Positions 768-40,942 of a stretch of DNA of 64,000 bases are shown here, piece by piece. The position numbers were made by a program, and so were the translations under genes. Every line of letters begins with the position of its first letter. Within the stretch, counting starts at the first letter, position 1. This DNA comes from a virus: positions 57,728 through 121,727 of IMG/VR virus record IMGVR_UViG_3300010965_000427, one strand, 5' to 3'. Below the pieces are notes generated by a model that searched no databases, was not told the origin of the DNA, and saw only the letters and a program-made list of their open reading frames with translations.

Positions 768-3476
768 TTATTTTTTTTCAGAACTATTTGGTTCTTTATT
801 TTTTTCTTGATCTTTTTCAGGTGTTTCGGATTCTTCCTTAGACGCCTCTGGCTCCTCTTCAGGCATCTCCGGCTCTTCCTCAGGAACCTCTGGCTCCTCT
901 TCCATATTGAAATTGTCTTCTTCAGTTCCGTCATTTTCAGAAGGACTTTCAGAACCTGGCTCCGTTCCAAGCCTTTCTAAATCAGTATTAGCAGCTTGCT
1001 CTGCTGGTTTTAAACTTTTAATAAATTCAATAGAGCTTAAAACAACCCCTTCGTTATGTTCTTTCATTATTTCATATAAATTAATAGTGGCTTTCCCATT
1101 TTCATCTGGAGTGACTATATCTGAAAGTTCTAACATAAACCCATTGTCGGCTTGCCATCTTCTTAAAAAGAACGCCTTAAATGTATTTTTAATAGCATCT
1201 ATATTAGATCCTAATTCACCAATTAATTCGGTAGTCATGAAATCAGAGTTTAACCATGCGTCTATTGTTTTTTCTAATGTTTCCGCATATTCATCGTATG
1301 CTTCTATTTGGCTTTTTATAGTAGTTACATCTGGTTTTGGCAAAGACAAATCTACGTTATCAACAAATTTATCGTACATATATAAATAATAACTATCTTC
1401 GTTTTCTTTAAATAATTCTTTTTCTTCATCTGTTGCTGTTCTATCTAGTAAGCCTGTATTGCTTTTCATTAAGTCAATTATTTTATTTCTTATAATGGAG
1501 TCATTACGTGCTATTATTTGTGTGAAATTTGTTAATTGAGGAGTAAATTCATCTTGAATGATGGTTACTCTTTTTGATAATAAAACATTATTTGCTAATA
1601 CAGTTGTTGCAAAATCAGCTTGGAATCCTGAATCTACAGTTTCTGGAGTTAGCCCAATAGCCATTAGCATCTGCTTTCTTAATAATTCGTCCAGATCGCT
1701 GTCTGGAACTGTATGCTGCATATTTCTTGTTTCAAATTCAAACTTAGTTTGTGGTAAAGCAGGATGCCCTTCGAACGTTAATTCTAACCCTGCTCTCTGC
1801 ACCCAATCTACTAAATCTACGGGGGCGTTAATTCCTAATGGAAAATATTGTTGACGCATTTTTGTAAGTTCATGCATAGCAATTTCAATTGTTCTTTGAG
1901 GATCTGGATCGCTCGGATCTAAAATCATATTAACATGTGTTAACGCAATAGAATTTTTTGTTAATGCCATAACCTTGGCAAATAGCAATATCCCTCTGAG
2001 ACTAGTTAATATTTTTAAATCATCTAATAATGTTTTACCTATTCCGCTATCGTGGTATTTTAATGCAAAATAAGTTACTAATTCTGACGGAACATAAATC
2101 ATTCTTGTATATTGGTTTGCTAATGCTCTGGCTAACATTATTCGATACAGTTCATTATTTTGGCCAATTTCCGTTTTTCTTCCATATGCGCCATTTTTTA
2201 ATCTTTGAATTAAGTCAGACTCAATAATACTTGCATAAATTTGAGTGGCCTGAGGTATAGTAAGACTTAAATTATCTTTTCCTGCTAAGTTTCTTTTTGC
2301 TCTTTGTAATAAGAACGTGGATAGTTCTCCTCTTGGATTTCCAAGCTGGAGTTGAATGTCTCCTAAATATTTTTTATTAGTAAGATGAGATACTGGATTT
2401 CCTTCTTCGTCAATAATTACAAAATATCCTACATGCTCTCTTTTATTTCCAGGTACACAAACAGGAATTACGGATTCTGAAGGAAATTTTAAAACTAATG
2501 GACGCCCGATCGATTTACGTTTTGTTTGCCCGCTATTTGGAACGCTGACTAATGGCACTGCTTGGTTGGGTGGACTTTTGTATAGCAGTTTTTCTATTTT
2601 ACTAGCTGATAATGACTCAGTCGAAATTCTTCTTGGCGATATTACTGATCTTACTTTATTTTTTGCATTCGTTGTAATAAGTTCCGGAAGTTTTAAAAAG
2701 TGGTAATTATCGGAGACTTCTATCATAAAACTAGGAAGCCTCGTAACTTCTCCATTATTAATTTCACAAATACAAGGAGCGATTGGGTCTCTTTGTGCAG
2801 TATAAAAATTTCTTTCAAACGATTCTAATCCAATTTTAGCATTAGAAGGTTTTTTAGTTTGAAAACTTTCTCCCAGTATTCCTAAAGAAACGGCTTCTCC
2901 AGCAGGAGACACAATCGATCCTAAAGATTCTACGGAAATAGTTCTAGACCCATTAATAAGTTCGTCAACTGCATTTTCTGGCAATACAGCAAACACATAT
3001 GAGCCAGTTTCAAAAAGTATTTCTCTTAATATTTGTGGAAGAAGTTTAGTAACAGTATAGGCTGTATCACATTGATTTTTAAATTCTTTTAACAAGGTGG
3101 AAGTAAGCTCGCTGCAAAAAACAGGGCTCTTCATTTTATATAAAATTTCTGATGTTACCATATCTTTTGGTGACAATATAGAACTTACAAGAATTTGAGC
3201 AGCTAATTCTAAATCTGGAAATAACTGCTGAGCATTGCGAGAATCTTCGATGTTGCTTTGAATTTTTTCACTTAACGAAGTAAATGACGATTCGCTAAGA
3301 TTGTAATAGGAATTGGGGTTATTTATATCTGTTTTTCTCGGATCTTTATTTACTACCAATTTGCTAATAATGGCCGCCAGCTCTGGTTTTCCATTAATAA
3401 TTCCAATAGCTGGATATTTTTTCTTTGAATTAACTAGACGCACAATTTCGTCAATTGAGCTTTCTTTAGTGGGCAT
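768..3476 (-). CDS. portal protein, phiKZ gp129-like (902 aa)
   Basis: Motifs LFPDLELAAQILVSSILSPKDM, GRPLVLKFPSESVIPV and HVGYFVIIDEEGNP, an acidic C-tail, and divergent placement next to a gp128-like gene match phiKZ-type portals as recalled. Confidence 0.8.
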   Translation of the reverse strand: MPTKESSIDEIVRLVNSKKKYPAIGIINGKPELAAIISKLVVNKDPRKTDINNPNSYYNLSESSFTSLSEKIQSNIEDSRNAQQLFPDLELAAQILVSSILSPKDMVTSEILYKMKSPVFCSELTSTLLKEFKNQCDTAYTVTKLLPQILREILFETGSYVFAVLPENAVDELINGSRTISVESLGSIVSPAGEAVSLGILGESFQTKKPSNAKIGLESFERNFYTAQRDPIAPCICEINNGEVTRLPSFMIEVSDNYHFLKLPELITTNAKNKVRSVISPRRISTESLSASKIEKLLYKSPPNQAVPLVSVPNSGQTKRKSIGRPLVLKFPSESVIPVCVPGNKREHVGYFVIIDEEGNPVSHLTNKKYLGDIQLQLGNPRGELSTFLLQRAKRNLAGKDNLSLTIPQATQIYASIIESDLIQRLKNGAYGRKTEIGQNNELYRIMLARALANQYTRMIYVPSELVTYFALKYHDSGIGKTLLDDLKILTSLRGILLFAKVMALTKNSIALTHVNMILDPSDPDPQRTIEIAMHELTKMRQQYFPLGINAPVDLVDWVQRAGLELTFEGHPALPQTKFEFETRNMQHTVPDSDLDELLRKQMLMAIGLTPETVDSGFQADFATTVLANNVLLSKRVTIIQDEFTPQLTNFTQIIARNDSIIRNKIIDLMKSNTGLLDRTATDEEKELFKENEDSYYLYMYDKFVDNVDLSLPKPDVTTIKSQIEAYDEYAETLEKTIDAWLNSDFMTTELIGELGSNIDAIKNTFKAFFLRRWQADNGFMLELSDIVTPDENGKATINLYEIMKEHNEGVVLSSIEFIKSLKPAEQAANTDLERLGTEPGSESPSENDGTEEDNFNMEEEPEVPEEEPEMPEEEPEASKEESETPEKDQEKNKEPNSSEKK
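846..902 (-). repeat. 21-bp tandem repeat encoding EEEPE[VM]P in the portal C-tail
   Basis: ctctggctcctcttcaggcat / ctccggctcttcctcaggaac / ctctggctcctcttc. Confidence 0.85.
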
Positions 3477-8998: not shown

Positions 8999-9032
8999 TT
9001 AGTTGCTGCCGAGCATGCTCGGCAGCAACTAA
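8999..9032. terminator. 34-bp perfect palindrome between convergent genes, probable bidirectional terminator
   Basis: TTAGTTGCTGCCGAGCA|TGCTCGGCAGCAACTAA. Confidence 0.8.
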
Positions 9033-9784: not shown

Positions 9785-11890
9785 TTACCCGTATACCCAA
9801 GCGTGGCCATAGAGATTTAAAGGAGTCATCGCAGCTCCAGCATTATAAAGTTGCGAAGGCCCGCCGATTATCAGAGTTTCTCCATTAGCTGAAACTCCTA
9901 TAGAAGTGCCAACGGCGGAGTTTATCACCGCTTGAGACGGAATTAACGTCGTGTTATATACCCAAGCAGAATCTATTTTTGTAAATACATACACAGCTCC
10001 TGACTCCCTGCCTTTGCCTCCGGAAACAAGATCGTCGTGCAATTGTGAGCCAATGAATAATGAATTTGAATCGGCAGTCATAGCTAATGAACTACCAAAG
10101 TGTTCATTTGACGAAACATTGGTAACTTCTGGAGCCATTATTTTGGCTACTTGTGGCCAAGTTACAGTCTGCCCAGAGACGGTTCTCCTGAAAACATAAA
10201 CAGCCCCGCCCCTAGTCCATGTTCTTCCTGGATTTGTTTTTTGAGCTAAAATGGCTCCAACATATAACTCAGTTCCGTCTTCGTTAAATAACAACGAATA
10301 ACCAAAATTATCTCCTACCAAGGCGTCAGAAGCAAATACAGGACCAGCTTCAAGAGTGACCGCGGTTCCATTAAATGCGTAAATATAAACAGAACCTGTG
10401 TCCATTCCTTTAGCGGTATTTGCTAGTCTTTTACTAGATGCAATTACTGTTACGTCAGAATTACAAGCAACTTCCCATCCAAACAAATCGCTCGCTGCCG
10501 CATTTGGAGTTGGTATATAAACAACAGCCTGCCATACACTTCCCCCTGGTGCTCTGGTAAAAATATGCGTAGACCCGCCGTCTAATACAGTTGTATCATG
10601 GCCTTGAGCCCCAACTATTAAAGTATTTCCGTCATTGGATAATTTTATTCCTCTGCCAAACCAGTCGTATGTATTTGGAGCCGGCATCGAAATCATTGAT
10701 TGCTTTACCCAAATAGCTCCAGGAGTTGTTCCTGTAGCTGTAAATATATAAACGGCTCCATTATTCAAATTTCCTGGCGGTAATTTATGCCCAGGGGCAG
10801 ACGCGGCTAATGTTGTGCCATCGGCATTTAACGAAACTTTATATCCAAACCATTCAACTGCGATTCCAGGAGTCGCTACTTCTATATTAGCAGTAAGTAT
10901 TTGTTCTAAGTCCCATGTGCCAAGCCCATTTTTTCTATATAAATAAACTTTGCCAGCTTGAGCAATTTTTCTTGTAGTTGTGGTCACTACAAATGCGCCC
11001 ATGTAAGGGGCCCCGATTGCAATTACCCGCCCGTCCCTACTGATGCTGACTGACCATCCAAACCAATCTCCCAATGTCGCCGGATTGAGAGGAGGAAGAA
11101 CCGGGTTGGTTAACATGGCTTTATTAACCACTGGCAAATAAGAAGATCTTGTTTTAAATGTGCTTATTATGCTCCATGCGGAATCGCCCATTGTATTTCC
11201 AGTGTGGCGAACTCGAACATAGTAATTTGTATTTGGCACTAAACCAGATACACTCCATGTAGTTTTATTTGCAACTGAATGACTTAATTGGGAGATTATG
11301 GTTGTAAATAATGGATCTGTTGCAAGATCCCACGAGGAATCTTTATGTGTATCCCCAGGCCCTCCAGTTGTGGCAAACGCTGAAGAAGTTATGCTAACTG
11401 TTGAATTTAAATTAGTAGCATCGTTAATTGGAGACGTAATTGTTGGAGAAACAATTCCCCCGCCAGTTATTTGAATGCTGTATCTTTTGTTATTTACAAT
11501 AAAAACGCCTGTGCCTGCCGATCCAGGAGCTGTATAACTGATTGTATCTCCATTTCTAGAAATAACTCCATTTAAACAAGACACAGTATATACTTTAGAC
11601 ATGCTAAAGTTGGTAATTTTGTAAGAACCAGTTGCTGAAGCAATAAGCGTTCTTGGCCCAGATATTGACAAAGTCAATTCAATGAGATGGCTAGGTATAT
11701 ATGCCAAAGGAATTATATTGTTAGTTATTGGTATTGGTCCGTCTTCGGTTCCTTTTTCCTCAATTGAAACCGCTCCAAAGTTTGCAATAGCCCCAGCAAT
11801 AGTGGTTGCAGATGTTCCACCAAGGGCAATTGGTAAAATGGATGGAGTTAATTCGTTATCTATACTTGGTCCAATTACAGTGTTTGGCAT
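9785..11890 (-). CDS. putative tail adhesin: Ig-like + FN3 + seven-bladed FG-GAP beta-propeller (701 aa)
   Basis: FN3 motif (WDLATD...LVPNTNYYVRVRH...SAWS) and seven FG.SV...DG..L.IGA...GAVY repeats. Confidence 0.75.
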   Translation of the reverse strand: MPNTVIGPSIDNELTPSILPIALGGTSATTIAGAIANFGAVSIEEKGTEDGPIPITNNIIPLAYIPSHLIELTLSISGPRTLIASATGSYKITNFSMSKVYTVSCLNGVISRNGDTISYTAPGSAGTGVFIVNNKRYSIQITGGGIVSPTITSPINDATNLNSTVSITSSAFATTGGPGDTHKDSSWDLATDPLFTTIISQLSHSVANKTTWSVSGLVPNTNYYVRVRHTGNTMGDSAWSIISTFKTRSSYLPVVNKAMLTNPVLPPLNPATLGDWFGWSVSISRDGRVIAIGAPYMGAFVVTTTTRKIAQAGKVYLYRKNGLGTWDLEQILTANIEVATPGIAVEWFGYKVSLNADGTTLAASAPGHKLPPGNLNNGAVYIFTATGTTPGAIWVKQSMISMPAPNTYDWFGRGIKLSNDGNTLIVGAQGHDTTVLDGGSTHIFTRAPGGSVWQAVVYIPTPNAAASDLFGWEVACNSDVTVIASSKRLANTAKGMDTGSVYIYAFNGTAVTLEAGPVFASDALVGDNFGYSLLFNEDGTELYVGAILAQKTNPGRTWTRGGAVYVFRRTVSGQTVTWPQVAKIMAPEVTNVSSNEHFGSSLAMTADSNSLFIGSQLHDDLVSGGKGRESGAVYVFTKIDSAWVYNTTLIPSQAVINSAVGTSIGVSANGETLIIGGPSQLYNAGAAMTPLNLYGHAWVYG

Positions 11891-11901
11891 GATCTAATTC
11901 C

Positions 11902-12225
11902 TTATAAATTTTTACAAATTCCGTTAACCCTTACAGCGACGCTAGCGCTGGAGGATCTGATCGATATTATTTCTCCTGGAGAACCAATTAGCGCAGTTCT
12001 TTCATATGTTCCTCCGTTTGCAGGTATTTTACATCCGTACTCTATATAGTCGGCCGGCTCTGGTGCCGAAACGGGAGACATTGTGAGAAAGAAATCGGCT
12101 TCTTCAGCGCCTTCATTAACGGCTAATATATTGAAAGTAGCATATTGAACTGTTGCTGGAATTGTATACACCGGCACAAGCGAGCCAGCAGATGACATAA
12201 CCTTAGCAAAGAGACCGTCGGGCAT
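11902..12225 (-). CDS. small beta-rich protein in the tail-fibre operon (107 aa)
   Basis: ATG at 12225 with GGTG upstream; VYTIPA and VAVRVNG pattern of small beta-sandwich phage proteins. Confidence 0.65.
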   Translation of the reverse strand: MPDGLFAKVMSSAGSLVPVYTIPATVQYATFNILAVNEGAEEADFFLTMSPVSAPEPADYIEYGCKIPANGGTYERTALIGSPGEIISIRSSSASVAVRVNGICKNL

Positions 12226-12289
12226 GTTTATCACCAAAAGACTAGAGTAAACTTAGTTGAGATTTTGTTATAAATTTTGAGAACTAAAA

Positions 12290-15200
12290 TTATTTAAAAA
12301 TATGGACAACGCCACAATTTGTTTCTGACTGCGCTGCGTAATCAGAAGCAATGCCTATGGCTAAAGTTGATCCGTCTTCGGAAAGATAATCGCTATATTG
12401 ATTTTCAGAATAATTTAAAAAATTAGCTGTTAATAAGCGTTTAAAAGACCATGAATTATTTTTAAACACATACACTTTTGCTGACGTAGAATTGTTTTTT
12501 ATAATAACTACATTTCCGGCTGAATTTATTCTTGCTATATCAGATCCTGGAAAAACGGCTTCTTGTTCCCAAGTTGTTCCAGATGCTCTATAAATATATG
12601 TTTCATAAGAGATTCCGTTATATTTTGAAGCAATAAATAAATTTCCATTGCTATTAAAACCTAGCGGGATAAAAACGTCTCCAATTTGGTCTGTGGGAGA
12701 ATTTAAAAAAGAATGAAAAGCCCAATTAGCTCCTGTTAATTTGTAAAAGTATATTCTACCAATTCCAAACGGAACGTGTGTAGAGGTTGCTAATGTAATT
12801 CCGTCTTTACTAATTTTTGTAGATATTCCAAAAAAGTTATGAGCTACTGGATTTTGGGCACTAATTTGCCCTTGCTGGGCCCAAGTTCCATTAGTGTTTT
12901 TATAAATAATGATAAAACCGCTATCTTCTATTCCAAGAACATCTGCTCCAGGAATTCCTATAATAATAGTCAATCCATCTTCTAATATCGATAAAGAAAC
13001 TTTCGAACTGTAATTTCCCAAATTTGAAGAAAGCTCAATTCTAGCTTGTTTTGACCATGAATTGGATGCTTTTACAAATACATGTAATAAATGAGGTTCA
13101 GCAGTAATAACGGCTAAGGTTAAACCGTTCCCGCTTAATGCAATGCATTCCCCAAATCTGTCATAAGTTGAAAAAGTCTCTTCATTAAACTCTATACGAG
13201 CCTCATTTATCCAAGAATGTTGATTTTCTGTTATGAAGATGTGAACACACCCAGACAATTTACCATTAGTATTTAAATCCATAGGAGAACCAATTGCTAT
13301 AGTTTGTTTATTGCTACTAAATGAAATGCTGTCCCCAAATAATTGCCCGGCTATTGGGTTAGTTGGTTGGATAATGGCAATTTCTTGCATTGGATAAATT
13401 TCAGTTGCAGTAGCAAAAGAAACAACGTTGCTCCATGGGCTATCCCCGCTTGTTTCTCCAGTGTACTTAACTCTAATATAGTAGACATGAGAAAGCAATA
13501 AATTAGCCACCGGCCATGTTGTTTTATTTATAGTGCTATTTTCACTAAAATCTACAAGAGTCATAAAATCAACACTTGTGGATAGTTGCCAAGTCGAGCT
13601 TCTATGAGTATCTGTTTTTTGGACAGTATCAAAAACAGAACTGGTAATTGTTAAAGATTTTGGAAAATCAATTGATCCATTAACTGGATAATTAATTGTT
13701 GGTTTAATAACAGATCTTTCCTCTTCTGTGAATAAAATAGCGTTACTCCATTCGCTTTCATCGTAAGATATTCCAAAATATTTTACACGTAAGTAATAAA
13801 CCTGTTTAGATACAAGATCCGTTATCACCCATGTTGTTTTATTACTTTGGCTATTATCTATTCTTTGAAATATATTTTGAAAATTCTGATCAGTAGCTAA
13901 TTCCCATGTAGAAGAAAAATGAGCGTCCCCGCCATCGTTAGTGGAAAACGCAGAAGACTGGCAAGTTATTGTTTTTGGCTGAGATACTGAATTATTTAAA
14001 GGGTTTAAAATAGAAGGAGCTAAAATGTGGCTGCCTGTTATTGAAAATTGAGCAATATCGCTCCAATCGCTATAAACTAAATCTAATGATTTATATCTAA
14101 CTCTTAAAAAATAATCAGCATTTTTAAGAAGAGAATCTATTGGCCATCTGTTTTTATTTATAATATCATCAGGATTATTTATAATTAAAGTTAAAAAATC
14201 TGGATCTGTGGAAAGTTGCCAATCTGAACTAAGGTGGGTTCCGTCGGCATTATTTATTGAAAAATTTGATGCCAAAACAATTAAACTTTGTGGCTGATTA
14301 GTTGCTCCGTATAACGGAAATATTATAGTTGGTTTATTAACTATTATTGGAATTTCTAATGTAGTAACAGAAGCTGCAATGCTCCAATTGCTTAATCTGC
14401 CAGAGACTGCCCTATAACAAACTCTAGCGTAATAAACAGTGAGGCCACGTTGGTTTGAAAATGCAATGCTTGTTAAAAAATCTCTATTATTTAATACTTC
14501 GTGAGTAATATGACTAAAATTTATATCGGTTGATAATTGCCAATTTGAACTATAATGACTATCAACGCAGTTGGTAGTTTCAAAAATTGAACTTGTTAAA
14601 GTTATTTCTGATATTCCATTGCTAATAGAACTTACACACGATGTAATAGTAGGAACGTTTACAAAAGGAACACGTCCAGATACAATTGACGAAGCTTGCC
14701 GGTATGTAATTAATTTTGGAGTTGGTAAACCGGCCTCTATTTCATTTGGTGTTGCTACGCTGTAGCCTAATGACTCAAGAGTAACTCGATGAGGGTTATT
14801 CGGAAATTCTAAATGAGGCGTATTAGTAGGTATTGTATTTCTTAAAGGAAAATCATTAGCCATTGAATTTATTTTATTGACTAAATCTAGCTCTCTAAAT
14901 CTTGCTTGTTCATTTTCGTTACGAATTATTTCTGGAAACAGTGGCAATGACTCAAACAGCCCATCCCATAATGTTAATTTTGCATTTAATCTACGAGAAT
15001 TTATTTTTTCTAAAGCAGCATTCCTATATGTGGTCCATGTTCCACCAACACTTCTATATTGAATAAATAAAGTTCCTTGTAATAGACAAGATACCATGGA
15101 GCACGCTCCATATAGCAATTTTCCGGAAGACTCACTTCCGTCAAGATAGTATAAACTAAGTACAAAGTCAGTTCCTTCTTGCAAAATTTTTTGCACTGGA

Positions 15201-15367
15201 CCGACACTAAGCTTTAGTATAAAATCATCAACAAAAAATGGAGCATAAATTGGCATTACTACAACGCCACGTTGATTAATTGACGGAGTTAAAATAAATT
15301 CTTCATTTGTTATTAAATTTGCAGGGTTTACTCCATAAGGGTCAAACGGTAATAATAATTCTGGCAT
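12290..15367 (-). CDS. gp131-family tail/baseplate fibre with 4 FN3 domains and a degenerate FG-GAP propeller
   Basis: Start re-called at ATG 15367 (GGAG SD, just past the upstream stop); N-terminal PFDPYG.NPANLI.NE...YAPFF; H...NPH motif; four FN3 repeats. Confidence 0.78.
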   Translation of the reverse strand: MPELLLPFDPYGVNPANLITNEEFILTPSINQRGVVVMPIYAPFFVDDFILKLSVGPVQKILQEGTDFVLSLYYLDGSESSGKLLYGACSMVSCLLQGTLFIQYRSVGGTWTTYRNAALEKINSRRLNAKLTLWDGLFESLPLFPEIIRNENEQARFRELDLVNKINSMANDFPLRNTIPTNTPHLEFPNNPHRVTLESLGYSVATPNEIEAGLPTPKLITYRQASSIVSGRVPFVNVPTITSCVSSISNGISEITLTSSIFETTNCVDSHYSSNWQLSTDINFSHITHEVLNNRDFLTSIAFSNQRGLTVYYARVCYRAVSGRLSNWSIAASVTTLEIPIIVNKPTIIFPLYGATNQPQSLIVLASNFSINNADGTHLSSDWQLSTDPDFLTLIINNPDDIINKNRWPIDSLLKNADYFLRVRYKSLDLVYSDWSDIAQFSITGSHILAPSILNPLNNSVSQPKTITCQSSAFSTNDGGDAHFSSTWELATDQNFQNIFQRIDNSQSNKTTWVITDLVSKQVYYLRVKYFGISYDESEWSNAILFTEEERSVIKPTINYPVNGSIDFPKSLTITSSVFDTVQKTDTHRSSTWQLSTSVDFMTLVDFSENSTINKTTWPVANLLLSHVYYIRVKYTGETSGDSPWSNVVSFATATEIYPMQEIAIIQPTNPIAGQLFGDSISFSSNKQTIAIGSPMDLNTNGKLSGCVHIFITENQHSWINEARIEFNEETFSTYDRFGECIALSGNGLTLAVITAEPHLLHVFVKASNSWSKQARIELSSNLGNYSSKVSLSILEDGLTIIIGIPGADVLGIEDSGFIIIYKNTNGTWAQQGQISAQNPVAHNFFGISTKISKDGITLATSTHVPFGIGRIYFYKLTGANWAFHSFLNSPTDQIGDVFIPLGFNSNGNLFIASKYNGISYETYIYRASGTTWEQEAVFPGSDIARINSAGNVVIIKNNSTSAKVYVFKNNSWSFKRLLTANFLNYSENQYSDYLSEDGSTLAIGIASDYAAQSETNCGVVHIFK

Positions 15368-15368
15368 T

Positions 15369-18300
15369 TTATACTCCAAGTTTAAAATCAAAACTAAATG
15401 TATAAATAATGTATTCAAAGTCATTAGGCGTAGCATACTGGTTTTTATGATTTCCTATATATAAATGAGTTCCATTTGAATTTATAGCCATTTTTTCACC
15501 AATTTCTTCATAAGCAAGTTTGTTTCCCGGTGTGTTAAGTTTTTGCTTAAGTTCCCAAACGTCGTTTACTTTAGTAAATATGTTAATACTATTGCCATCG
15601 TGAAGACGTCTAAGCACTATTTTGGTGCCATTGTCGTCCATTAGTATTCTTGGAGTAAGTGTGTATGCATTTAAAATGTACTCGTCATGTAAAATAATTC
15701 TTTGTTTTTCAACCCAAACATTATTTACAATGCCGTAAATGCATAAAGTTTCATTTTTAGAAAAAAACCCTGCAAGCACAGAGCCGTTTTTATTTAAGGC
15801 GAATGAAGCACCAACGGCAGTTTCTTGATTTAAAGGTTCGTTGTTAAAAAATTCAGATAAATTTATTACGCAAATTTTTTTCCAAACTCCACTTATTTTT
15901 CGAAAACAATGCAGATTTTTTAAAGTGCTGGCAAATAGCTGGTCTCCTTCGTGACTTATTTTAACAAAAAATGGACCATGGTAGAAAGAAGTTGTTCCAT
16001 TAATGTGTTCGATATAGCTATTATTTTCGTATTCGAGATGTAAAAGCGCTTCTTGCTGCCAAATTCCTCCTACAAAGGCAAAAATATAAACTGCTCGTTT
16101 TTCATAGTAGCCGTAGAGCGTGACTAAATTGTAAAGGTCTGGAACTCTATCTATGGCCGCTCCTACAGCAATTCTGCTTGCGTGGCCGTCGATAGATAAT
16201 GATCGGCCAAAAGAAGTAAACCGTCTTTTTTTAGAAATTATAACTCCATTGGAATAAGTAAAATTATAACTATTTTCATCTTCTAATGGTTCTAAAATTG
16301 AATGTAATTCCCAATTTAAATTATTTCTAACATATACTGTAGGTTTTAAGGAATCGGGAATTATATATTGTTCTTCGTCGTTATCTAATATATCAACACA
16401 ACTTACAAGCACTGAACAATAATCGTTTGTAGCTATTTGGTCAGGTAAAGATCCGTCATATTTAAAAATGGTATTTGAATTTATTACTGTTCTAACAAAG
16501 GGATAAGAAAATCTTTCATCCACATCGCTGTTTTGTGAATATAAATCAGTGCTGCCCACTATTAGATGGCTTTCGTCTTTACTTAATAAAAAATTAGATT
16601 TATATGCCACTTCTTCGCACAGTGCGTCGCTTATAGATATTTCCCGCATAAAATTAACAAAAGCAGGGCTCCATTCACTATCCCCATAGTTTTCTCCGGT
16701 ATACTTTACATATATATAGTAGTATTGCCCTGGCTCTAAATCGTAAAAAGTAACGGTTGTTAAAGGTTCTTCTAAACAAACCACTTCATTACTAACTATT
16801 GGATTAGTTGTCATAATAGCAATTTGCCATGTTGACTTTATAAATACATCCGGCGAATTAGTATTAATGCTAAAAGGGGTAGCCGCACAAGTAATAGACA
16901 TCGATCCTTCGCTATATGAAGAATTATACGATAAAATCTCAGGAGTATTAACAGACGAGGTTAAATCCTCGTATGAGTCACAGCATAACCATTGAGTTTT
17001 TCCACTTAGACTTCCCTTTTGCCTGACTCTAAAATACAATTCGCAATTGGACGGTAAATCGTTGGCAACGCATTCAGTAATAGCTGACAGTTCCGATGCA
17101 TTTTTGCTTATTGATAAAAACCCAGGATCAATAGAAACTTGCCAGTCGCTTATTTCACAAACATCTCCTTCTTCCTGAGGGATAAATATAGGAAGGTTAA
17201 ATTTAATTATTCTGGAGGGAAGTAAAATGCTGTTTGCTAAAATTAAAAAATTTCTAACAGTGAACGACACAGGAGTGCTCCACTCGCTACTTCCAAATTG
17301 CTCGCCTGTATACAAAACGCGAACATAATATTTCTGATTAGAAAGCAGCCCCGATAATTCCCAAGTTATTTTTTGAATTGCGTTATTTGTAGTTGAAGCA
17401 ACTATTAAAGAAAATTGTTCATCGTAGGCTAGTTGCCATGTTGAATATACATGCAAATCCGTTGCATTATTCATAATAAAATTTGACGATGAAATAATAA
17501 TCGTTTCTGGCTGATCTACCGATTCTGTTATAGGGAAGACTATTATAGGAGTATTTATATTTTGAACTAAACAATTAAAAACTACAGTGTCGCTCCATTC
17601 GCTAACAATTAATAGCTCCCCGATGTATCTTACACGTAGATAATACCTATTTCCATATATTAGTTCTGCCGGTTGCCATTGTGTTTTGTTAACAACATCA
17701 TTTAAACTTTGTTCGATTATTGTTAAGAAATTCTCATCAGACGACAATTGCCAACTTGATGAATAATGAGCTCCAAAACCCAAATTTGTTTCAAAATTTG
17801 AAGAACTAGCTGAAAGGTTAACCGGTTGCCCTTCTGAATTATTTAAAGGGTTTAAAATTATGGGTTTTAATATAATTGTTCCAGCTACATCTATGACTGA
17901 CTGTGTTCCAAATAGTGTTAATAATTGTGCATGTGTAACAAATGATGCCGGGCCAGAATGATTTTGCAAATCGGCTTCGGTAGCAACCCTGAAGCCTAAT
18001 AATTCCAATGTTGTGCCATGGGGGTCTGATGGAGCTGTTAAATGCTCGACTATTAATTTCTCACTAGGACGATTAGCGATTACTGTGGAAAGGGATATAA
18101 TTGAACTAACTACTTCATTTTGCCCTTTTAAATAAGCTGGGTCTCCTTCGCCAGGACCCGTTGGAAAACACAATGGATTTGGAATAAGTATATCGTATAA
18201 TGTAATTTCTGGATTATACGACACCATGCTAAAGTGATTAAGAACATGTTGCCTAGTATCGGCCCATGCTCCTCCAAATGTTTGATATGTTAAAGTAATA

Positions 18301-18596
18301 ACGCCATTTGTATCTAATCTGTCAAGTATAATTCCGCCATTAACTTGTAAATTTGTTTCTAGCGAGCCTCCTTTGAAAGGCAATGCAAGTAAATAATCCG
18401 TTCCTAATGTTAATCTCCTAGTAACATTGTTTAATGTAAAGTTAATAATGAAACTGGATGCAAAAAATGGAGAATAATTTGGAATTATAAAAAACAAATT
18501 GCTCTTTATTGTTTCATCTACTCTATGAACTTCTTCTATGATTAAATTTGCAGGAGAGCTTCCTGTTGGATCGTATTCAAACGTAGGAGCAGTCAT
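15369..18596 (-). CDS. gp131-family tail/baseplate fibre with 4 FN3 domains and a highly diverged propeller
   Basis: N-terminal YDPTG.SPANLI.EE.H...YSPFF, YQTFGG, HL...DPH; four FN3 repeats; remnant blades such as SFGRSLSIDGHASRIAVGA. Confidence 0.78.
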   Translation of the reverse strand: MTAPTFEYDPTGSSPANLIIEEVHRVDETIKSNLFFIIPNYSPFFASSFIINFTLNNVTRRLTLGTDYLLALPFKGGSLETNLQVNGGIILDRLDTNGVITLTYQTFGGAWADTRQHVLNHFSMVSYNPEITLYDILIPNPLCFPTGPGEGDPAYLKGQNEVVSSIISLSTVIANRPSEKLIVEHLTAPSDPHGTTLELLGFRVATEADLQNHSGPASFVTHAQLLTLFGTQSVIDVAGTIILKPIILNPLNNSEGQPVNLSASSSNFETNLGFGAHYSSSWQLSSDENFLTIIEQSLNDVVNKTQWQPAELIYGNRYYLRVRYIGELLIVSEWSDTVVFNCLVQNINTPIIVFPITESVDQPETIIISSSNFIMNNATDLHVYSTWQLAYDEQFSLIVASTTNNAIQKITWELSGLLSNQKYYVRVLYTGEQFGSSEWSTPVSFTVRNFLILANSILLPSRIIKFNLPIFIPQEEGDVCEISDWQVSIDPGFLSISKNASELSAITECVANDLPSNCELYFRVRQKGSLSGKTQWLCCDSYEDLTSSVNTPEILSYNSSYSEGSMSITCAATPFSINTNSPDVFIKSTWQIAIMTTNPIVSNEVVCLEEPLTTVTFYDLEPGQYYYIYVKYTGENYGDSEWSPAFVNFMREISISDALCEEVAYKSNFLLSKDESHLIVGSTDLYSQNSDVDERFSYPFVRTVINSNTIFKYDGSLPDQIATNDYCSVLVSCVDILDNDEEQYIIPDSLKPTVYVRNNLNWELHSILEPLEDENSYNFTYSNGVIISKKRRFTSFGRSLSIDGHASRIAVGAAIDRVPDLYNLVTLYGYYEKRAVYIFAFVGGIWQQEALLHLEYENNSYIEHINGTTSFYHGPFFVKISHEGDQLFASTLKNLHCFRKISGVWKKICVINLSEFFNNEPLNQETAVGASFALNKNGSVLAGFFSKNETLCIYGIVNNVWVEKQRIILHDEYILNAYTLTPRILMDDNGTKIVLRRLHDGNSINIFTKVNDVWELKQKLNTPGNKLAYEEIGEKMAINSNGTHLYIGNHKNQYATPNDFEYIIYTFSFDFKLGV

Positions 18597-18671
18597 AAAA
18601 AACCCATTTAAAGTCTGGTTGCTTTAGCCATTAAGAGAAGAAAAGAACGCGATAGTTTTTTTTAAATAAAT

Positions 18672-18710
18672 TAATTAGCAAAGCCCCCTATAGGAGGCTA
18701 AAGCTAATTA
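18672..18710. terminator. imperfect hairpin between fibre paralogs
   Basis: TAATTAGC..AGCC-CCTATAGG-A-GGCT..GCTAATTA; the A run just left of it plus the T run at 18655-18663 make the direction unclear. Confidence 0.45.
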
Positions 18711-18751
18711 GCGCAAATGTTTCTTATGTTTAAATTTTTAAGTTTTATTTT

Positions 18752-21700
18752 TTAAAACATTAGTTGATCGAAAATGTAAGCCGATCCAACAGCGAGTGTA
18801 TTTTCATATGTTTCACGAGCACCTATTACTACAAAAGATCCATCGTAAGATAGTTGTGCCGAGTTAGCAAAATGAGCATATCCATTTGAATTTCCTGGAA
18901 CTAAACTGCCTTTTTCGTTCCATGAATTTCCTGTTCTTGTAAAAACAAAAGCATCTCCGACTTGTGTTCCTCTGGAATTAGTATCGTAACAAGCCCCAAT
19001 GACTGCAACTTGCCCAACCTGGTCAATAGTCACAACTGATCCAGCATAGGATTTTACTCCAATGGTATCAGGAATTAGTTTCTGTTGCAGAGTCCAGTCG
19101 TTTCCGGAATTAATAAAAATATAAGCTGCGCCAGCTTCTGATCCTTTTGCATTTGTATTTTTTGGCGCCCCAATTAAAGCAAATAGTCCGTTTTTTGATA
19201 AAGCTACAGACGATCCAAACCAGTCATACGAAGCTCCGTCGCTAGCAATTAATTTTTTTTCTTGACTCCATGTCGATTGAGTTTTTCTAAATATATATGC
19301 GCTCCCACAATCAGACCCTCTTTCATTATTGTCTAACTTGGCACCAATAAGAATTAAGTTTCCATCAGAAGACATTGAAATAGAATTTCCAAAGCGGTCT
19401 GTAGATGCTTTGTCGCTTGCTAAAAGCTTAGCCTCTTGAGACCAAGATAGCCCTGAATTTATAAAAACGTAAACGGCTCCGTGAGAAGTTATTGATGGAT
19501 TGTTTGTGTCATAATAGTTAATAGAGCTTACTGCCAGCGTATTTCCATCAGAAGACATTGCTAATGAATAACCAAAATTATCATTATTCCAAATATTTTC
19601 AGAAATAAGTTTAACTTGCTGAGACCATACGTTATTTATTTGTTTAAATATGTATACGGCTCCTGAATTTGCTCCTGAACTATTATCATTACTATAACTT
19701 CCAATTGCAACTACGCTTCCGTCTCCACTCATTGCTACGGAAAATCCAAAACAATCTAATGTTATTCCGTCGCTTGCTATTAGCTTGGCTTGTTCACTCC
19801 AAGTGCTTCCATCTTTTTTGAATATATACGCTGCGCCTACATTTAGTTTTCCGCTGTTTGAATTGGAATAGGCTCCCATTATCATAAAAATTCCATCATC
19901 GCTTATTGCGATTGGAGAACCAAATGAAATGCTACTGCCACTATAATTAGATGCAAAACAGTCATAGCCGCACCAATCTGACGCCACAAGTTTAAGCACT
20001 TCGTTTTTTGGGTATGTCTGCTGCATTGTAGTAAATAATATTGGAACAGACCATTCGCTTGTTCCTCTTATTGCTCCTGTATGGCAAACTCTAATATAGT
20101 ATGTTGTATTAAAAAGTAATCCGCTAATTGGCCAGGATGTAAGATTTACCGTATTGTATAAACTCTGTGATATAATGGTAGAAAAAGAAGGGTCGTTAGA
20201 TAATTGCCAATTTGACGATAAATGTGTGTCTGTTCCGTAATTCACACCAAATGCGCTGCTATCGGCTATCAGGATAACAGGTTGCTTAATAGCTTCGTTA
20301 ACTGGGAATGCAGTGGTGGGTTTTTCTACATGAATTGTTAATACTGTAAAGGAAACTACATTGCTCCATTGGCTATCTCCGTATAAATTGGATGTGTGTT
20401 TTACTCTAACAAAATAAGTTTGCCCAGAAACTAAATTAGCAAAATCTAATTGAGTTTTATTTATTTGATTGTCAATGCTTTGTTGCGTTACACTTGAAAA
20501 GTTTTCATCTGTCGACACTTGCCAGCTAGACGATATATGTTCATCGATGCCATAATTTAAAGACATCTCAGAACTGATCATTGCAGTGTTTGGATAAACA
20601 TTATTTTGTAGATTTGTTGGATTTAAAATAATAGGCTGATTAACGGATATGCTTATTCCCGAAAATGCCACTAGATAGCTCCAGTCGCTTTTTCCATGAT
20701 TCTGACTTTTGTAACGAACACGAACGTAGTAAGTTCTTCCTGGTTGTACTTCATTTATAGTCCAAGTTATTTTATTAACAACATCCGCAACACTTTCTTG
20801 TGTTATATTTAGGAAATTTATATCGGTTGCAACTTGCCAATCTGTAGACTCATGTTTATCAGATCCGTATGACATTATTAGTCTTGAACTAGATACTTGA
20901 AGCGGGGCTTCATGACTAGCCGATTCATTTGCCGGATAAAATATAAATGGTCTATTTACCTGAATAATTAGTTCTGAAACAGTTAAAGTTAAACTCCATA
21001 AACTGTTTCCATGGCTATGGCCTTTATGCATAACCCTAACATAATAAATTTCGCCAGGAGTAAGATTGCTAACAGACCATTCTGTTTTATTAACAGTATC
21101 ATTCAAAGTTTGCTGAACAATATTAGTGAAAGAACTATCTGTGGATAATTGCCAGCTTGAAGATAAATGAGTGTCGACTTCGCTAATTGTAGAAAATGCG
21201 CTACTGTTAAAATTCATATAAGTCGAAGAAGAAACGATTGGTGAATTTGGAACAACAATTATTGGAGTTTTTATCTTGATTTGATTTAAACCATAGCCGT
21301 GCCCACCAACGCCACTTAGTATTAAGTATGCTCCGTCTAGAGTTAAAATTCCGTCATTGATCTGACCAGACATAATGTCTTCAATTAAACATGGAAAATA
21401 GCCAATAGATTGAATAGTTAATTGGTGTGGATTTTGTAAATTTCCTAAATGACGATCAATATCGCGATTAGTAGCAGTTTGAGCTATTATATTTTTAAAA
21501 TTTTCTATGCTATCAATAAGTCTATCTTGTCCGTAAAATGCACCAGCGTCTTGCTGATGTCTGGTCGAAGGAAAGCAGTTGGGAATATTAAAAATGGTTT
21601 CCCAAGTAATAGTTCTGTTATTATAAATGGCTTCAGCAAATGTTCTTAATATAAAAGCCCTATTGTAAGACCAAGGCCCTCCGAGTGTTTGGTAATTAAT

Positions 21701-22000
21701 AGATATTGTTCCTATATACCCTGGATTGATTAAAGAAATAGCTCCATACAAATATTGATTTGCAGCCCGAGATGCGCCGATAAAAGGCACCGCCATCGAA
21801 TAATCTATTCCGCGTATTAACTGCCTAGTTTCTTGCCCTGCTAAAAAATTAATTGTTAAAGAATTCGCAAAAAACGGAGTGAATATAGGAACAATAAATT
21901 GATAATGGCGATCATTGACAGCAGTTATTGTATGGAGTTCGTTTACAATGGCGTTTGTCTCTAATAGACCAGTTAAATCAAGTGGGTACGTAATTAACAT
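18752..22000 (-). CDS. gp131-family tail/baseplate fibre with 4 FN3 domains and a canonical seven-bladed FG-GAP propeller
   Basis: Start re-called at ATG 22000 (GGAGG at 22013-22009); YPLDLTG...N.I.NE.H, FTPFF, YQTLGG, HL....NPH; repeats like KLIASDG...D.FG.SVA.S.DG...IGA...GAAYIF. Confidence 0.82.
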   Translation of the reverse strand: MLITYPLDLTGLLETNAIVNELHTITAVNDRHYQFIVPIFTPFFANSLTINFLAGQETRQLIRGIDYSMAVPFIGASRAANQYLYGAISLINPGYIGTISINYQTLGGPWSYNRAFILRTFAEAIYNNRTITWETIFNIPNCFPSTRHQQDAGAFYGQDRLIDSIENFKNIIAQTATNRDIDRHLGNLQNPHQLTIQSIGYFPCLIEDIMSGQINDGILTLDGAYLILSGVGGHGYGLNQIKIKTPIIVVPNSPIVSSSTYMNFNSSAFSTISEVDTHLSSSWQLSTDSSFTNIVQQTLNDTVNKTEWSVSNLTPGEIYYVRVMHKGHSHGNSLWSLTLTVSELIIQVNRPFIFYPANESASHEAPLQVSSSRLIMSYGSDKHESTDWQVATDINFLNITQESVADVVNKITWTINEVQPGRTYYVRVRYKSQNHGKSDWSYLVAFSGISISVNQPIILNPTNLQNNVYPNTAMISSEMSLNYGIDEHISSSWQVSTDENFSSVTQQSIDNQINKTQLDFANLVSGQTYFVRVKHTSNLYGDSQWSNVVSFTVLTIHVEKPTTAFPVNEAIKQPVILIADSSAFGVNYGTDTHLSSNWQLSNDPSFSTIISQSLYNTVNLTSWPISGLLFNTTYYIRVCHTGAIRGTSEWSVPILFTTMQQTYPKNEVLKLVASDWCGYDCFASNYSGSSISFGSPIAISDDGIFMIMGAYSNSNSGKLNVGAAYIFKKDGSTWSEQAKLIASDGITLDCFGFSVAMSGDGSVVAIGSYSNDNSSGANSGAVYIFKQINNVWSQQVKLISENIWNNDNFGYSLAMSSDGNTLAVSSINYYDTNNPSITSHGAVYVFINSGLSWSQEAKLLASDKASTDRFGNSISMSSDGNLILIGAKLDNNERGSDCGSAYIFRKTQSTWSQEKKLIASDGASYDWFGSSVALSKNGLFALIGAPKNTNAKGSEAGAAYIFINSGNDWTLQQKLIPDTIGVKSYAGSVVTIDQVGQVAVIGACYDTNSRGTQVGDAFVFTRTGNSWNEKGSLVPGNSNGYAHFANSAQLSYDGSFVVIGARETYENTLAVGSAYIFDQLMF

Positions 22001-22089: not shown

Positions 22090-23337
22090 ATGTATGTTTA
22101 CGTTGGTGCAACTTGCCTTGGAAGATCCACAGGATCTCAATGGAGTTTAGTAGATTTAAGGCAAATGGAAATGAGGGACATATTTAATAAATTTCGCAGT
22201 TGTTTTTTAGAACTTTCAAATCCTGTTTTACCAAATAATGTTTACGTTGATGCATGGCAATTTAAAGACGAAGCCTCTTATTCTCAAAGAACATTAACTC
22301 AATTTTTAATAGATGTTGGTAACAGAACCCTTGCCACAGTTCCTTCGTTACCGTCCTCAAGAATTTCCTATGCTAGATACTCAGATGCTATAAGGGCGGG
22401 ATACAAAATTAATCCAACCACAATAGGAAATCCAGAAGAAGATATAACAGTAAATAGCCCAGATTTAAAAATTACAAAAGTTTTTCCAGAAACAGATTTA
22501 AGATTAATTCATACACACTGTTTAATTACAGTTAATGGTTATTATCATCAGACGGACGCTAATGTGACAGGCACTGCTGCATATGTTTTAAAAGGAGCTG
22601 AATCTATGCGAAAATGCAGAATGAATCAATTAGGCATTTTGAGTTTTTTAGATATTGGCCGAGTTTCAAAGGTGCAAATTACTAATAACTTAATCAATGG
22701 GTTGCCGTCTGACAATGGTTTAAAAAATCGAGCTTATTTAACATTAAATCAGGACACAACTAATAAAACAGTGCTATTATCATTAGGAGGATATTTAATA
22801 TTTCAAGAAGCAAATGTTTTCTGGCAGTCTGGGGCTAATGTATTTACATTAAATTTACAAGCGATGCCTTATATTGAACGTTTTTATGAATCTAATCTTT
22901 ATTTAGATTTTAGTGCATTGGGGTTAACTATTAATGCTGAGGACCCCAGTCATTTAATCCTTTCTGAATTTTTAAGTGATGCGATAATTAAAAAATTCCT
23001 TACACTTCCCCAAACATTTTTTATAGTTATAGACACTCCTTCATTAATTACTAACAAATATTTTTTACATCAAGCTAATATGCCAGGTATGTTAACAGCT
23101 TACCAAGAACCAGTTCATCCATTGATTGTAAATTATGGAAAAGTTGCTGATTATTGGAGAACAAAAGAAGACGGATTTTGGTCAATTACTGTTACAGACG
23201 ATTATTTTAGAAATTTTGTACTATCTTTTCAAAATAAGTTATACACTCCAAATTTAACAAACAAACTAATACCTGGAAAAAGATATTTTCAAAGCAGAGG
23301 TCATTTTTTAGAAATAGGAGCATATGACCAAATTTAA
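22090..23337 (+). CDS. virion structural protein, phiKZ gp130-like
   Basis: 415 aa; CLITVNGYYH and VLLSLGGYL motifs; divergent from the gp131-like genes. Confidence 0.6.
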   Translation: MYVYVGATCLGRSTGSQWSLVDLRQMEMRDIFNKFRSCFLELSNPVLPNNVYVDAWQFKDEASYSQRTLTQFLIDVGNRTLATVPSLPSSRISYARYSDAIRAGYKINPTTIGNPEEDITVNSPDLKITKVFPETDLRLIHTHCLITVNGYYHQTDANVTGTAAYVLKGAESMRKCRMNQLGILSFLDIGRVSKVQITNNLINGLPSDNGLKNRAYLTLNQDTTNKTVLLSLGGYLIFQEANVFWQSGANVFTLNLQAMPYIERFYESNLYLDFSALGLTINAEDPSHLILSEFLSDAIIKKFLTLPQTFFIVIDTPSLITNKYFLHQANMPGMLTAYQEPVHPLIVNYGKVADYWRTKEDGFWSITVTDDYFRNFVLSFQNKLYTPNLTNKLIPGKRYFQSRGHFLEIGAYDQI

Positions 23338-40424: not shown

Positions 40425-40429
40425 TTCAG

Positions 40430-40942
40430 ATGGATCAAAATCAAAATGATTTATTCACCCCATTTGATAAAGCGGTTTATCTTTTTATAAGAGCGTTAGA
40501 TGAACAAATTACTATAGAAAAATTAAGAAAAAAAGATAATAAATTAGGTATTTTTCTTTTTGAAATTTACTTAGAAAAGGACATTTATAGATTTTTTAGA
40601 CCTAGCGAAATATTGAATACAACTAGCAAATTATTTGAAAATATTGAAAATAGAACATTTATTCTTGAGGTAGCTGACAGACTTTCCATATATTTCATGT
40701 CTGAACCAGCTTTATACAAAAATTTCATAGACTCCATTGTATTAGGAATTTGTAATACGCATTTAAAAAAAGAAACAGATAATTTAATTCCTGCTCAAAT
40801 TTTTCTATCTATAGAAGTTACTTCCATAGAAGAAATTACTTCATTATTATTTAACAATATTTGGTTATTAGTTATTTTTCTTATAAAAATGTTCTACGAT
40901 CAATCAAATTATTTTAAACATGAACTGAAGTCTCCAACATGA
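40430..40942 (+). CDS. hypothetical protein (170 aa)
   Basis: Tightly coupled to the previous ORF. Confidence 0.65.
   Translation: MDQNQNDLFTPFDKAVYLFIRALDEQITIEKLRKKDNKLGIFLFEIYLEKDIYRFFRPSEILNTTSKLFENIENRTFILEVADRLSIYFMSEPALYKNFIDSIVLGICNTHLKKETDNLIPAQIFLSIEVTSIEEITSLLFNNIWLLVIFLIKMFYDQSNYFKHELKSPT

What the first reader, a model, noticed from the sequence alone, without database searches (positions are those of the whole stretch)
9785..22000. Array of four integrin-alpha-like tail adhesins (FN3 stalk plus FG-GAP propeller), three on a phiKZ gp131-type anchor
Seen: three ~1025-1080-aa paralogs share one architecture. Each has an N-terminal D.TG...N.I..E.H...PFF...YQT.GG domain, an H...[ND]PH motif, exactly four ~100-aa FN3 repeats (P.I..P...H.SS.WQ...D..F...K..W...L....YY.RV.Y...S.WS) and seven propeller blades. 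A fourth gene lacks the anchor and has Ig + one FN3 + seven blades. Known: the N-terminal domain is the gp131-type baseplate anchor as I recall it, and FG-GAP repeats build the integrin-alpha propeller. Inference: the phage displays long bead-on-string adhesins with propeller heads rather than the usual beta-helix or fibre tips. These may bind S-layer, glycan or biofilm targets. I do not know this architecture from characterised Chimalliviridae.
Basis: partly seen in the sequence, partly recalled or inferred. Interest (0 to 1): 0.8.

Follow-up and report, generated by a model that had tools for sequence, protein, structure and literature searches.

The report
Propeller-tipped baseplate fibres of a giant phage
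A phiKZ-like giant phage encodes three long tail-fibre proteins that carry a seven-bladed, integrin-type propeller on a stalk of four fibronectin-like beads, plus propeller proteins with no anchor; this is a new variant of the propeller-tipped fibre already known from phiKZ, probably for gripping the host surface.

Summary
Four minus-strand genes lie between 9785 and 22000. A (1082 aa), B (1075 aa) and C (1025 aa) each combine a phiKZ gp131-type N-terminal domain, four FN3-like repeats and a C-terminal beta-propeller. BLASTP to gp131 gave E 2e-22, 1e-15 and 9e-19. D (701 aa) lacks that anchor and has one FN3 plus seven FG-GAP blades.

The anchor assignment is right and the gp130 homologue lies next door. 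But gp131 itself already ends in a seven-bladed propeller (PDB 4GBF), so a propeller head is this family's known design. The new parts are the FN3 stalk and the FG-GAP_2 type of propeller. No record of 50,697 phage genomes has the full architecture. A few metagenomic proteins have shorter versions, and this scan noted similar arrays on other DNA.

The array is larger than reported: a fourth anchor protein (E) and a second D-like protein (F) lie upstream of the window. Virion location and binding are untested.

Verdict: new variant of a known kind, moderate interest.

The parts
18752..22000 (-). Gene A, 1082 aa. gp131-type N-domain plus helical neck (about residues 1-245; 21266-22000), four FN3-like repeats (20006-21265), seven-bladed FG-GAP_2 propeller (18755-20005).
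15369..18596 (-). Gene B, 1075 aa. gp131-type N-domain, four FN3-like repeats (the third and fourth strongly diverged), and a diverged C-terminal head modelled as a propeller.
12290..15367 (-). Gene C, 1025 aa. gp131-type N-domain, four FN3-like repeats, degenerate FG-GAP propeller of about seven blades.
   Evidence: FG-GAP_2 1.8e-8; gp131 9e-19; RBS and start.
11902..12225 (-). Small gene, 107 aa from ATG 12225 (P0005). It belongs to a conserved viral family of ~100-aa proteins of unknown function that sits between gp131-N genes and GGT-motif head genes. It occupies the position of phiKZ gp132 but is not detectably related to it.
   Evidence: no family; hhalign probability 0.3 to gp132.
9785..11890 (-). 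Gene D, 701 aa. No gp131 anchor. It has an N-terminal GGT-motif segment, an Ig-like segment, one FN3-like repeat and seven FG-GAP_2 blades.
   Evidence: FG-GAP_2 1e-38, 6 stretches; GC 0.435 in the propeller part.
22090..23337 (+). Homologue of phiKZ gp130 (415 aa). In phiKZ this is the baseplate protein beneath which the fibres attach. It is divergently transcribed from gene A.
   Evidence: phrog_3337; gp130 1.6e-40; passages of PMC13250141.

Best explanation
A, B and C are paralogous subunits of the peripheral baseplate fibres of a phiKZ-like jumbo phage. They are the counterparts of phiKZ gp131, gp133, gp134 and gp135.

Proposed mechanism:
1. The ~200-aa N-terminal domain and the helical neck after it plug into the outer baseplate under the gp130 homologue. 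They probably form a mixed oligomer with the paralogues and with E, a fourth anchor protein encoded upstream of the window.
2. Four FN3-like beta-sandwiches form a stalk of the same bead count in all three proteins.
3. A seven-bladed propeller at the tip, clearly of the FG-GAP_2 (integrin alpha) type in A and C, binds a component of the host surface for the first, reversible step of adsorption. Three diverged heads would give three specificities.
4. D, and its paralogue F outside the window, carry the same FN3-plus-propeller module on a different N-terminus. They are probably mounted in trans on the virion, possibly through the conserved cassette of anchor gene, small ~107-aa gene and head gene.

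Shown here: homology of the anchor, domain order, synteny with gp129 and gp130 homologues, and the propeller fold of A.
Inferred: virion location, oligomer, adhesin function, and how D is mounted.
For: Anchor. BLASTP to phiKZ gp131 residues ~8-207 gave E 2e-22 (A), 1.3e-15 (B) and 9e-19 (C). The family profile hits gp131, gp135, gp134 and gp133 at 1.6e-58 to 3.7e-16. PHROG tail and virion-structural families match the same N-termini.

Synteny. gp129 and gp130 homologues flank the locus, and the gene order mirrors phiKZ gp130-gp135.

phiKZ framework. Passages of PMC13250141 describe twelve peripheral fibres attached beneath gp130. Each site holds six gp131-like N-domains and a six-helix bundle, with the gp131 propeller at the distal end. 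The model of A has a beta-rich domain (residues 17-105) followed by helices (114-229).

Stalk. Four FN3 repeats are present in each of A, B and C. Foldseek matches include four-domain FN3 fragments 6tpw and 3t1w.

Module sharing. The FN3 next to the propeller in A and C is closest to the single FN3 of D and F (43-47% identity).

Cassette. P0005-like ORFs occur in 8 of 54 IMG/VR loci. 7 of the 8 are preceded by a gp131-N ORF and 7 of the 8 are followed by a GGT-motif ORF.
Against: - There is no virion proteomics, imaging or binding data, and the host is unknown. The nearest cultured relatives share only 33-37% identity in the large virion RNA polymerase subunit.
- B has no Pfam FG-GAP_2 hit, and its first blades are low confidence in the model.
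- A's integrin matches stand only about 3 Z units above generic WD40 propellers, so 'integrin-like' is a statement about fold and repeat type, not function.
- No integrin-type calcium-loop motif (pattern recalled from memory) occurs in any of the six proteins.
- The gp131 C-domain 4GBF was not among the listed structural matches. My blade and FN3 profiles hit nothing in phiKZ gp129-gp146. The heads are therefore not shown to be homologous to the gp131 head.
- The passages of the phiKZ papers note that a receptor-binding role of the gp131 propeller is itself unproven.
Confidence: 0.7

Rival explanations
1. The propellers are enzymes, for example depolymerases or lyases for surface polysaccharide, that clear a path to the cell. 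They would not be passive adhesins.
Against: Pfam finds only FG-GAP_2 and FN3-like families and no catalytic family. The best and longest structural alignments are to integrin alpha propellers, which are ligand-binding. Three to five diverged heads in one genome fit receptor diversity better than one enzymatic task.
Confidence: 0.13
2. Some or all of these proteins, D and F above all, are virion decorations. They would stick the phage to non-host material such as biofilm matrix, mucus or particles, rather than act as primary receptor-binding proteins.
For: D and F lack the baseplate anchor. Their GC content (0.41-0.435 against 0.34 for the genome) hints at a separate origin. FG-GAP propellers occur on many unrelated viruses, including giant viruses and cyanophages. 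That Ig- and FN3-like domains on phage surfaces are often accessory is recalled knowledge, not a call.
Against: D-like genes sit directly after gp131-N genes in the window and in several IMG/VR loci. This ties them to the fibre module. A, B and C carry the baseplate anchor itself.
Confidence: 0.12
3. The genes are not virion components at all. They would be surface or secreted proteins made during infection, for example for superinfection exclusion or host-cell aggregation.
For: None beyond the lack of direct virion data.
Against: The N-domain is that of phiKZ virion fibre proteins. PHROG families hit at the N-termini are annotated tail or virion structural. The locus lies among structural genes.
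Confidence: 0.03

Closest known systems
phiKZ peripheral tail fibres gp131, gp133, gp134 and gp135 (gp131 C-domain crystal structure 4GBF; cryo-EM atlas PMC13250141)
   Same: Homologous N-terminal domain at the extreme N-terminus, followed by helices. Several paralogues sit in a row next to the gp130 homologue. There are four anchor-bearing paralogues in each phage (A, B, C, E against gp131, gp133, gp134, gp135). gp131 has a seven-bladed propeller at the distal end.
   Different: Here four FN3-like domains lie between neck and head. All three long paralogues carry a propeller. The propeller is of the FG-GAP_2 type, whereas gp131 gives no FG-GAP_2 hit and no hit to my blade profile. phiKZ gp133-135 are about 460 aa. 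Extra anchor-less propeller proteins (D, F) are present. The small gene in the gp132 position is unrelated to gp132.
Integrin alpha-subunit beta-propeller and bacterial FG-GAP_2 (PF14312) repeat proteins
   Different: No integrin-type calcium-loop motif (motif recalled; 0 matches). No beta-subunit partner, thigh or calf domains. The setting is a phage fibre.
Propeller-containing receptor-binding proteins of other phages: phi11 Gp45 (five-bladed platform), PRD1 P2
   Same: A beta-propeller displayed on a baseplate or vertex protein and proposed to hold the receptor-binding pocket (passages of PMC4901313).
   Different: Five blades, a different family, a trimeric helical stem instead of FN3 beads, and Gram-positive or tectivirus systems.
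Metagenomic gp131-N proteins with FG-GAP heads (P0126, P0206, P0140, P0148), GGT-motif FN3 + FG-GAP fibre proteins (P0007, P0009, P0018, P0024), and the earlier scan findings e1-5382359 and e1-5355082
   Same: Same modules. P0126 has the anchor, 2 FN3 and about 7 blades, with 47% N-domain identity. P0206 has the anchor, 1 FN3 and 7 blades. D-like architecture occurs with up to about 12 FN3.
   Different: None of those examined has the anchor, four FN3 and seven blades in one protein. All are uncharacterised database or scan entries, not described systems.

Membership tests
phiKZ gp131-family fibre proteins (gp131/133/134/135) | N-terminal ~200-aa domain homologous to gp131-N | tested here: met
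   BLASTP gave A 2e-22, B 1.3e-15, C 9e-19. The profile hits gp131 at 1.6e-58, gp135 at 4.1e-33, gp134 at 3.8e-24 and gp133 at 3.7e-16. D is not a member, with no N-domain match.
phiKZ gp131-family fibre proteins (gp131/133/134/135) | Helical segment after the N-domain that could contribute to the six-helix bundle | tested here: inconclusive
   Helices are predicted at 114-229 in A and 115-230 in B, partly at pLDDT 50-75. Bundle formation was not modelled.
phiKZ gp131-family fibre proteins (gp131/133/134/135) | Encoded in a paralogue row beside the gp130 homologue | tested here: met
   The gp130 homologue at 22090-23337 scores 1.6e-40. The gp129 homologue at 768-3476 scores 1.6e-113.
phiKZ gp131-family fibre proteins (gp131/133/134/135) | [quoted passage not shown] | not testable with these tools
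   Needs virion proteomics or cryo-EM.
phiKZ gp131-family fibre proteins (gp131/133/134/135) | C-terminal head related to the gp131 propeller (4GBF) | tested here: inconclusive
   Both are seven-bladed propellers. 4gbf is absent from the listed matches and there is no sequence similarity. No direct pairwise superposition was possible.
FG-GAP_2 (PF14312), integrin-alpha-type beta-propeller | Pfam FG-GAP_2 above the gathering score of 23 bits | tested here: met
   A 253.4, D 131.7 and C 34.9 bits; F 169.5 bits. Not met for B, which has no hit.
FG-GAP_2 (PF14312), integrin-alpha-type beta-propeller | Seven blades closing into one propeller that resembles integrin alpha | tested here: met
Integrin alpha subunit proper | Calcium-binding DxDxDGxxD-type loops in the later blades (motif recalled, not from a call) | tested here: not met
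   0 matches in A, B, C, D, E and F. The proteins are FG-GAP propellers, not integrins.
Fibronectin type III (PF00041 and FN3-like families) | About 100-aa beta-sandwich repeats recognised by FN3-type profiles | tested here: met
   A: fn3 37.3 bits (cut-off 25), Pur_ac_phosph_N 51.6, PhoD_N 48.5. B and C: Ig_Rha78A_N 41.1 (cut-off 27.4). fn3 itself is below cut-off in B (21.5) and D (23.4). Beta-sandwiches appear in both models. Foldseek matches FN3 arrays.
Chimalliviridae (nucleus-forming phiKZ-like phages) | Chimallin (phiKZ gp54) and PhuZ (gp39) homologues | tested here: inconclusive
   No tblastn hit at E <= 1e-3 in the 121,727-bp record, but the record is estimated at 45% complete. Virion and non-virion RNA polymerase subunits and many phiKZ-type structural genes are present.

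The most novel reading that the evidence does not exclude
The phage may build multi-specific 'bouquet' fibres. At each baseplate site the gp131-type N-domains of A, B, C and E would co-assemble, as proposed for the phiKZ hetero-hexamer. Three different propellers would then sit at the same height, because all three stalks have exactly four FN3 beads. Further propeller heads (D, F) would be clipped on in trans through a conserved three-gene cassette of anchor, ~107-aa adaptor and GGT-motif head. That would be a modular, exchangeable host-recognition kit not described for any phage.
Probability: 0.2. Interest if true: 0.65.

Novelty: new variant of a known kind. Interest (0 to 1): 0.45.

Why it matters
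Host recognition by phiKZ-like jumbo phages is poorly understood. Even for phiKZ, the role of the gp131 propeller is inferred rather than shown (passages).

This locus shows that the gp131 anchor is a general socket. 2463 representative clusters carry it at the N-terminus, on proteins of 178 to 3740 aa. Very different heads can therefore be mounted on it, here an FN3 stalk with integrin-type propellers.

If the heads are receptor-binding, they would be compact monomeric domains. Such domains could be expressed alone to identify receptors of uncultured jumbo phages and to predict hosts. The conserved anchor / small protein / head cassette offers a testable model for how anchor-less heads are attached.

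Tried and rejected
- Complex prediction of D (701 aa, alignment A5) with the small protein P0005 (alignment A4). The verdict was no answer (score 0.00, mark 0.32). This is neither support nor evidence against binding.
- P0005 family against phiKZ gp132 (hhalign probability 0.3) and against the N-terminus of P0021 (probability 0.1; BLASTP E 1.1). No relation was shown, so I dropped both the idea that P0005 is a gp132 homologue and the idea that it occurs fused to FN3 fibres.
- Sequence search of A against solved structures. Nothing scored better than E 0.22.
- 4GBF did not appear among the listed Foldseek or VIA-align matches of the A or B models. The models are over 1000 residues and only 50 rows are shown, so this says nothing about fold difference.
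- IMG/VR scan with A alone found no relatives. A six-row alignment worked.
- The sigma-70 promoter and terminator scan was at the shuffle level (59 found against 58.3 expected). This is uninformative for a phage with its own RNA polymerases.
- Literature. There were 0 papers with 'FG-GAP' + 'bacteriophage' + 'receptor-binding protein'. 4 papers held 'FG-GAP' + 'phage' + 'virion', none on phage fibres by title or abstract. None of the 15 listed for 'FG-GAP' / 'jumbo phage' / 'tail fiber' contained FG-GAP.
- Earlier-findings look-up by sequence found nothing.
Full report
**What the window is.** The window is bases 57728-121727 of a 121,727-bp IMG/VR virus record estimated at 45% complete. PHROG scans of 32 ORFs give phiKZ-type genes. 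These include several RNA polymerase beta-like subunits, a 2368-aa gp181-like tail protein with lysozyme domains, a head protease and many 'virion structural' families. The large virion RNA polymerase subunit is only 33-37% identical to its best cultured relatives, which are Burkholderia, Ralstonia, Xanthomonas and Pseudomonas jumbo phages. GC content is 0.34. Chimallin and PhuZ were not found by tblastn. With a half-complete record that is inconclusive, so I call the phage phiKZ-like rather than a proven member of Chimalliviridae.

**The observation.** Between 9785 and 22015 the minus strand carries ORFs of 1087, 1075, 1048, 111 and 701 codons.
- Ribosome-binding sites point to ATG 22000 for the first ORF and ATG 15367 for the third. 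This gives A = 1082 aa, B = 1075 aa and C = 1025 aa.
The 14 repeats, including one from F, align almost without gaps.
- Pfam calls them FN3-like. In A, fn3 scores 37.3 bits, Pur_ac_phosph_N 51.6 and PhoD_N 48.5. In B and C, Ig_Rha78A_N scores 41.1.
- Pfam FG-GAP_2 gives E 1e-76 with seven stretches for A, 1e-38 with six for D, 1.8e-8 for C and nothing for B.
- I delimited seven blades each in A, D and F by eye and built a blade profile from them. It recovers those training blades, finds partial hits consistent with about seven degenerate blades in C, and finds only weak hits in B.

**Structure.**
- AlphaFold2 on a 45-row alignment gives A a mean pLDDT of 80.9. The model has a beta-rich N-domain (17-105), helices (114-229), four beta-sandwiches (261-658) and a propeller (664-1080).
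- Foldseek on the whole model also lists FN3 arrays and FN3-plus-propeller receptors such as ROS1.
- B is therefore a propeller by model only, and not demonstrably of the FG-GAP type.
- No integrin-type calcium-loop motif (pattern recalled) occurs in any of the proteins.

**The anchor.**
- BLASTP of A, B and C against phiKZ proteins hits gp131 residues ~8-207 at 2e-22, 1.3e-15 and 9e-19.
- A profile of the N-domain hits gp131, gp135, gp134 and gp133 at 1.6e-58 to 3.7e-16.
- The divergent neighbour at 22090-23337 is the gp130 homologue (1.6e-40) and the ORF at 768-3476 is the gp129 homologue. The gene order mirrors phiKZ gp130-gp135.
- From passages of the 2026 phiKZ structural atlas (PMC13250141): phiKZ has twelve peripheral fibres attached beneath gp130. 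Each site holds six gp131-like N-domains and a six-helix bundle, proposed to be gp131 x3 plus gp133, gp134 and gp135. The gp131 C-domain, a seven-bladed propeller (4GBF, confirmed by sequence), lies at the distal end.
- Passages of PMC4901313 say that a receptor-binding or enzymatic role for that propeller is speculation. I did not read Sycheva et al. 2012 and know it only from these reference lists.

The anchor call is right. The propeller head, however, is not a departure from this family's design. It is the design. The differences are these:
- four FN3 beads lie between neck and head;
- the head is of the FG-GAP_2 type, whereas gp131 has no FG-GAP_2 hit and no hit to my blade or FN3 profiles;
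- all three long paralogues carry a head;
- there are additional anchor-less head proteins.

**The array is larger than the window shows.** A search of the whole record finds two more genes upstream of the window. E (388 aa) has the gp131-type N-domain and a different small C-terminal domain. F (650 aa), directly after E, has D's architecture, with FG-GAP_2 at 1.6e-50. The phage thus has four anchor-bearing paralogues, as phiKZ does, and two anchor-less ones. All domains of the paralogues are 23-39% identical, so the duplications are old. The FN3 next to the propeller in A and C is closest to the single FN3 of D and F (43-47%). This suggests that FN3 plus propeller moves as one module. D and F have higher GC (0.41-0.435) than the genome (0.34).

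**How common is it?**
- The N-domain alone finds 2463 representative clusters at E <= 1e-3. It is always at the N-terminus, on proteins of 178 to 3740 aa.
- Of the 149 best (only the best 150 are returned), my profiles find FN3 in 10, blades in 8 and both in 4.
- Pfam confirms FG-GAP_2 in 4 of those 8 blade-bearing proteins (P0126, P0140, P0206, P0148) and not in P0197, P0222, P0135 or P0136.
- The closest, P0126 (856 aa), has the anchor, two FN3 and about seven blades.
- In 50,697 phage records, 265 match A, but none over 80% or more of its length.
- Only 17 records match the propeller, and none is phiKZ-like. They are Vibrio phage nt-1, cyanophages, Sinorhizobium phage Phosso, Phage C48C1 and one uncultured Caudovirales phage.
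- Among 54 IMG/VR loci with the anchor, 11 have any FN3 or blade hit and none has the anchor, FN3 and blades in one ORF. Several of these loci are near-duplicates (L016/L017; L018/L019/L024).
- BFVD shows FG-GAP propellers in giant viruses, uncultured phages and Agrobacterium jumbo phage Atu_ph07.
- I found no paper describing FG-GAP fibre heads in phages.
- This scan noted similar propeller-fibre arrays in two other phiKZ-like genomes (e1-5382359, e1-5355082). They are not sequence look-alikes of A.

**A conserved cassette.** In loci L013, L018/L019/L024 and L034 a short anchor-only ORF (247-249 codons) is followed by a ~110-codon ORF and then by a D-like ORF with the GGT motif. The small ORFs are homologous to the window's 107-aa gene P0005. 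A profile of them finds members in 8 of the 54 loci. 7 of the 8 have a gp131-N ORF upstream and 7 of the 8 have a GGT-motif ORF downstream. In the window the order is C, P0005, D. P0005 has no Pfam or PHROG family. It belongs to viral ~100-aa clusters of unknown function and is not detectably related to phiKZ gp132. The cassette suggests that anchor and head can be separate polypeptides and that the small protein is an adaptor or an assembly factor. This is inference only.

**Verdict.** The finding is a real and well-delimited locus. It most likely encodes peripheral baseplate fibres with FN3 stalks and integrin-type propeller heads (confidence 0.7). It is a new variant of the known gp131 fibre family rather than a new kind of system, and neither virion location nor binding has been shown.

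Noticed in passing
G000:C1:35174-38346 (outside the window; L011 7175-10347): A second fibre cluster. E (388 aa) has the gp131-type N-domain plus a small non-FN3 C-terminal domain. It is followed 53 nt later by F (650 aa), which has D's architecture. After F come a 117-aa membrane-like protein and a 253-aa protein.
   Followed up: partly
window 11902-12225 (-); L012-L015, L018, L019, L024, L034: A conserved cassette: gp131-N gene, then one or two ~110-aa small ORFs (P0005 family), then a GGT-motif FN3 or propeller head gene. It occurs in 8 of 54 IMG/VR loci and in the window. In five of these loci (L013, L018, L019, L024, L034) the anchor gene encodes the N-domain only (247-249 codons).
   Followed up: partly
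window 9788-11140; G000:C1:36394-38346: D and F are richer in GC (0.41-0.435; GC3 of the D propeller is 0.317) than the genome (0.34; GC3 about 0.20-0.27 in A, B and C). This hints that the anchor-less heads were acquired separately.
   Followed up: no
L013 11626-19161 (+): A 2512-codon ORF in a 216,876-bp IMG/VR contig gives 30 hits of the blade profile, so it is a giant multi-propeller protein. It lies next to D-like genes and an anchor-only gene.
   Followed up: no
L011 5100-6209 and 12104-13192 (G000:C1:33099-34208 and 40103-41191): Two paralogous ~365-aa proteins are built from ~22-residue repeats of the type 'NTS.G.DFS.MF..C....FP'. A 241-aa repeat protein follows the first of them. They flank the E/F cluster. 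They were not searched against any family.
   Followed up: no
window 8999-9032: A 15-bp perfect hairpin with 8 GC pairs lies between the convergent genes that end at 8973 (+) and 9067 (-). It looks like a terminator.
   Followed up: no
whole record G000: There is no tblastn match to phiKZ chimallin (gp54) or PhuZ (gp39) at E <= 1e-3 in the 121.7-kb record. The record is about 45% complete, so this may simply be the missing half.
   Followed up: partly
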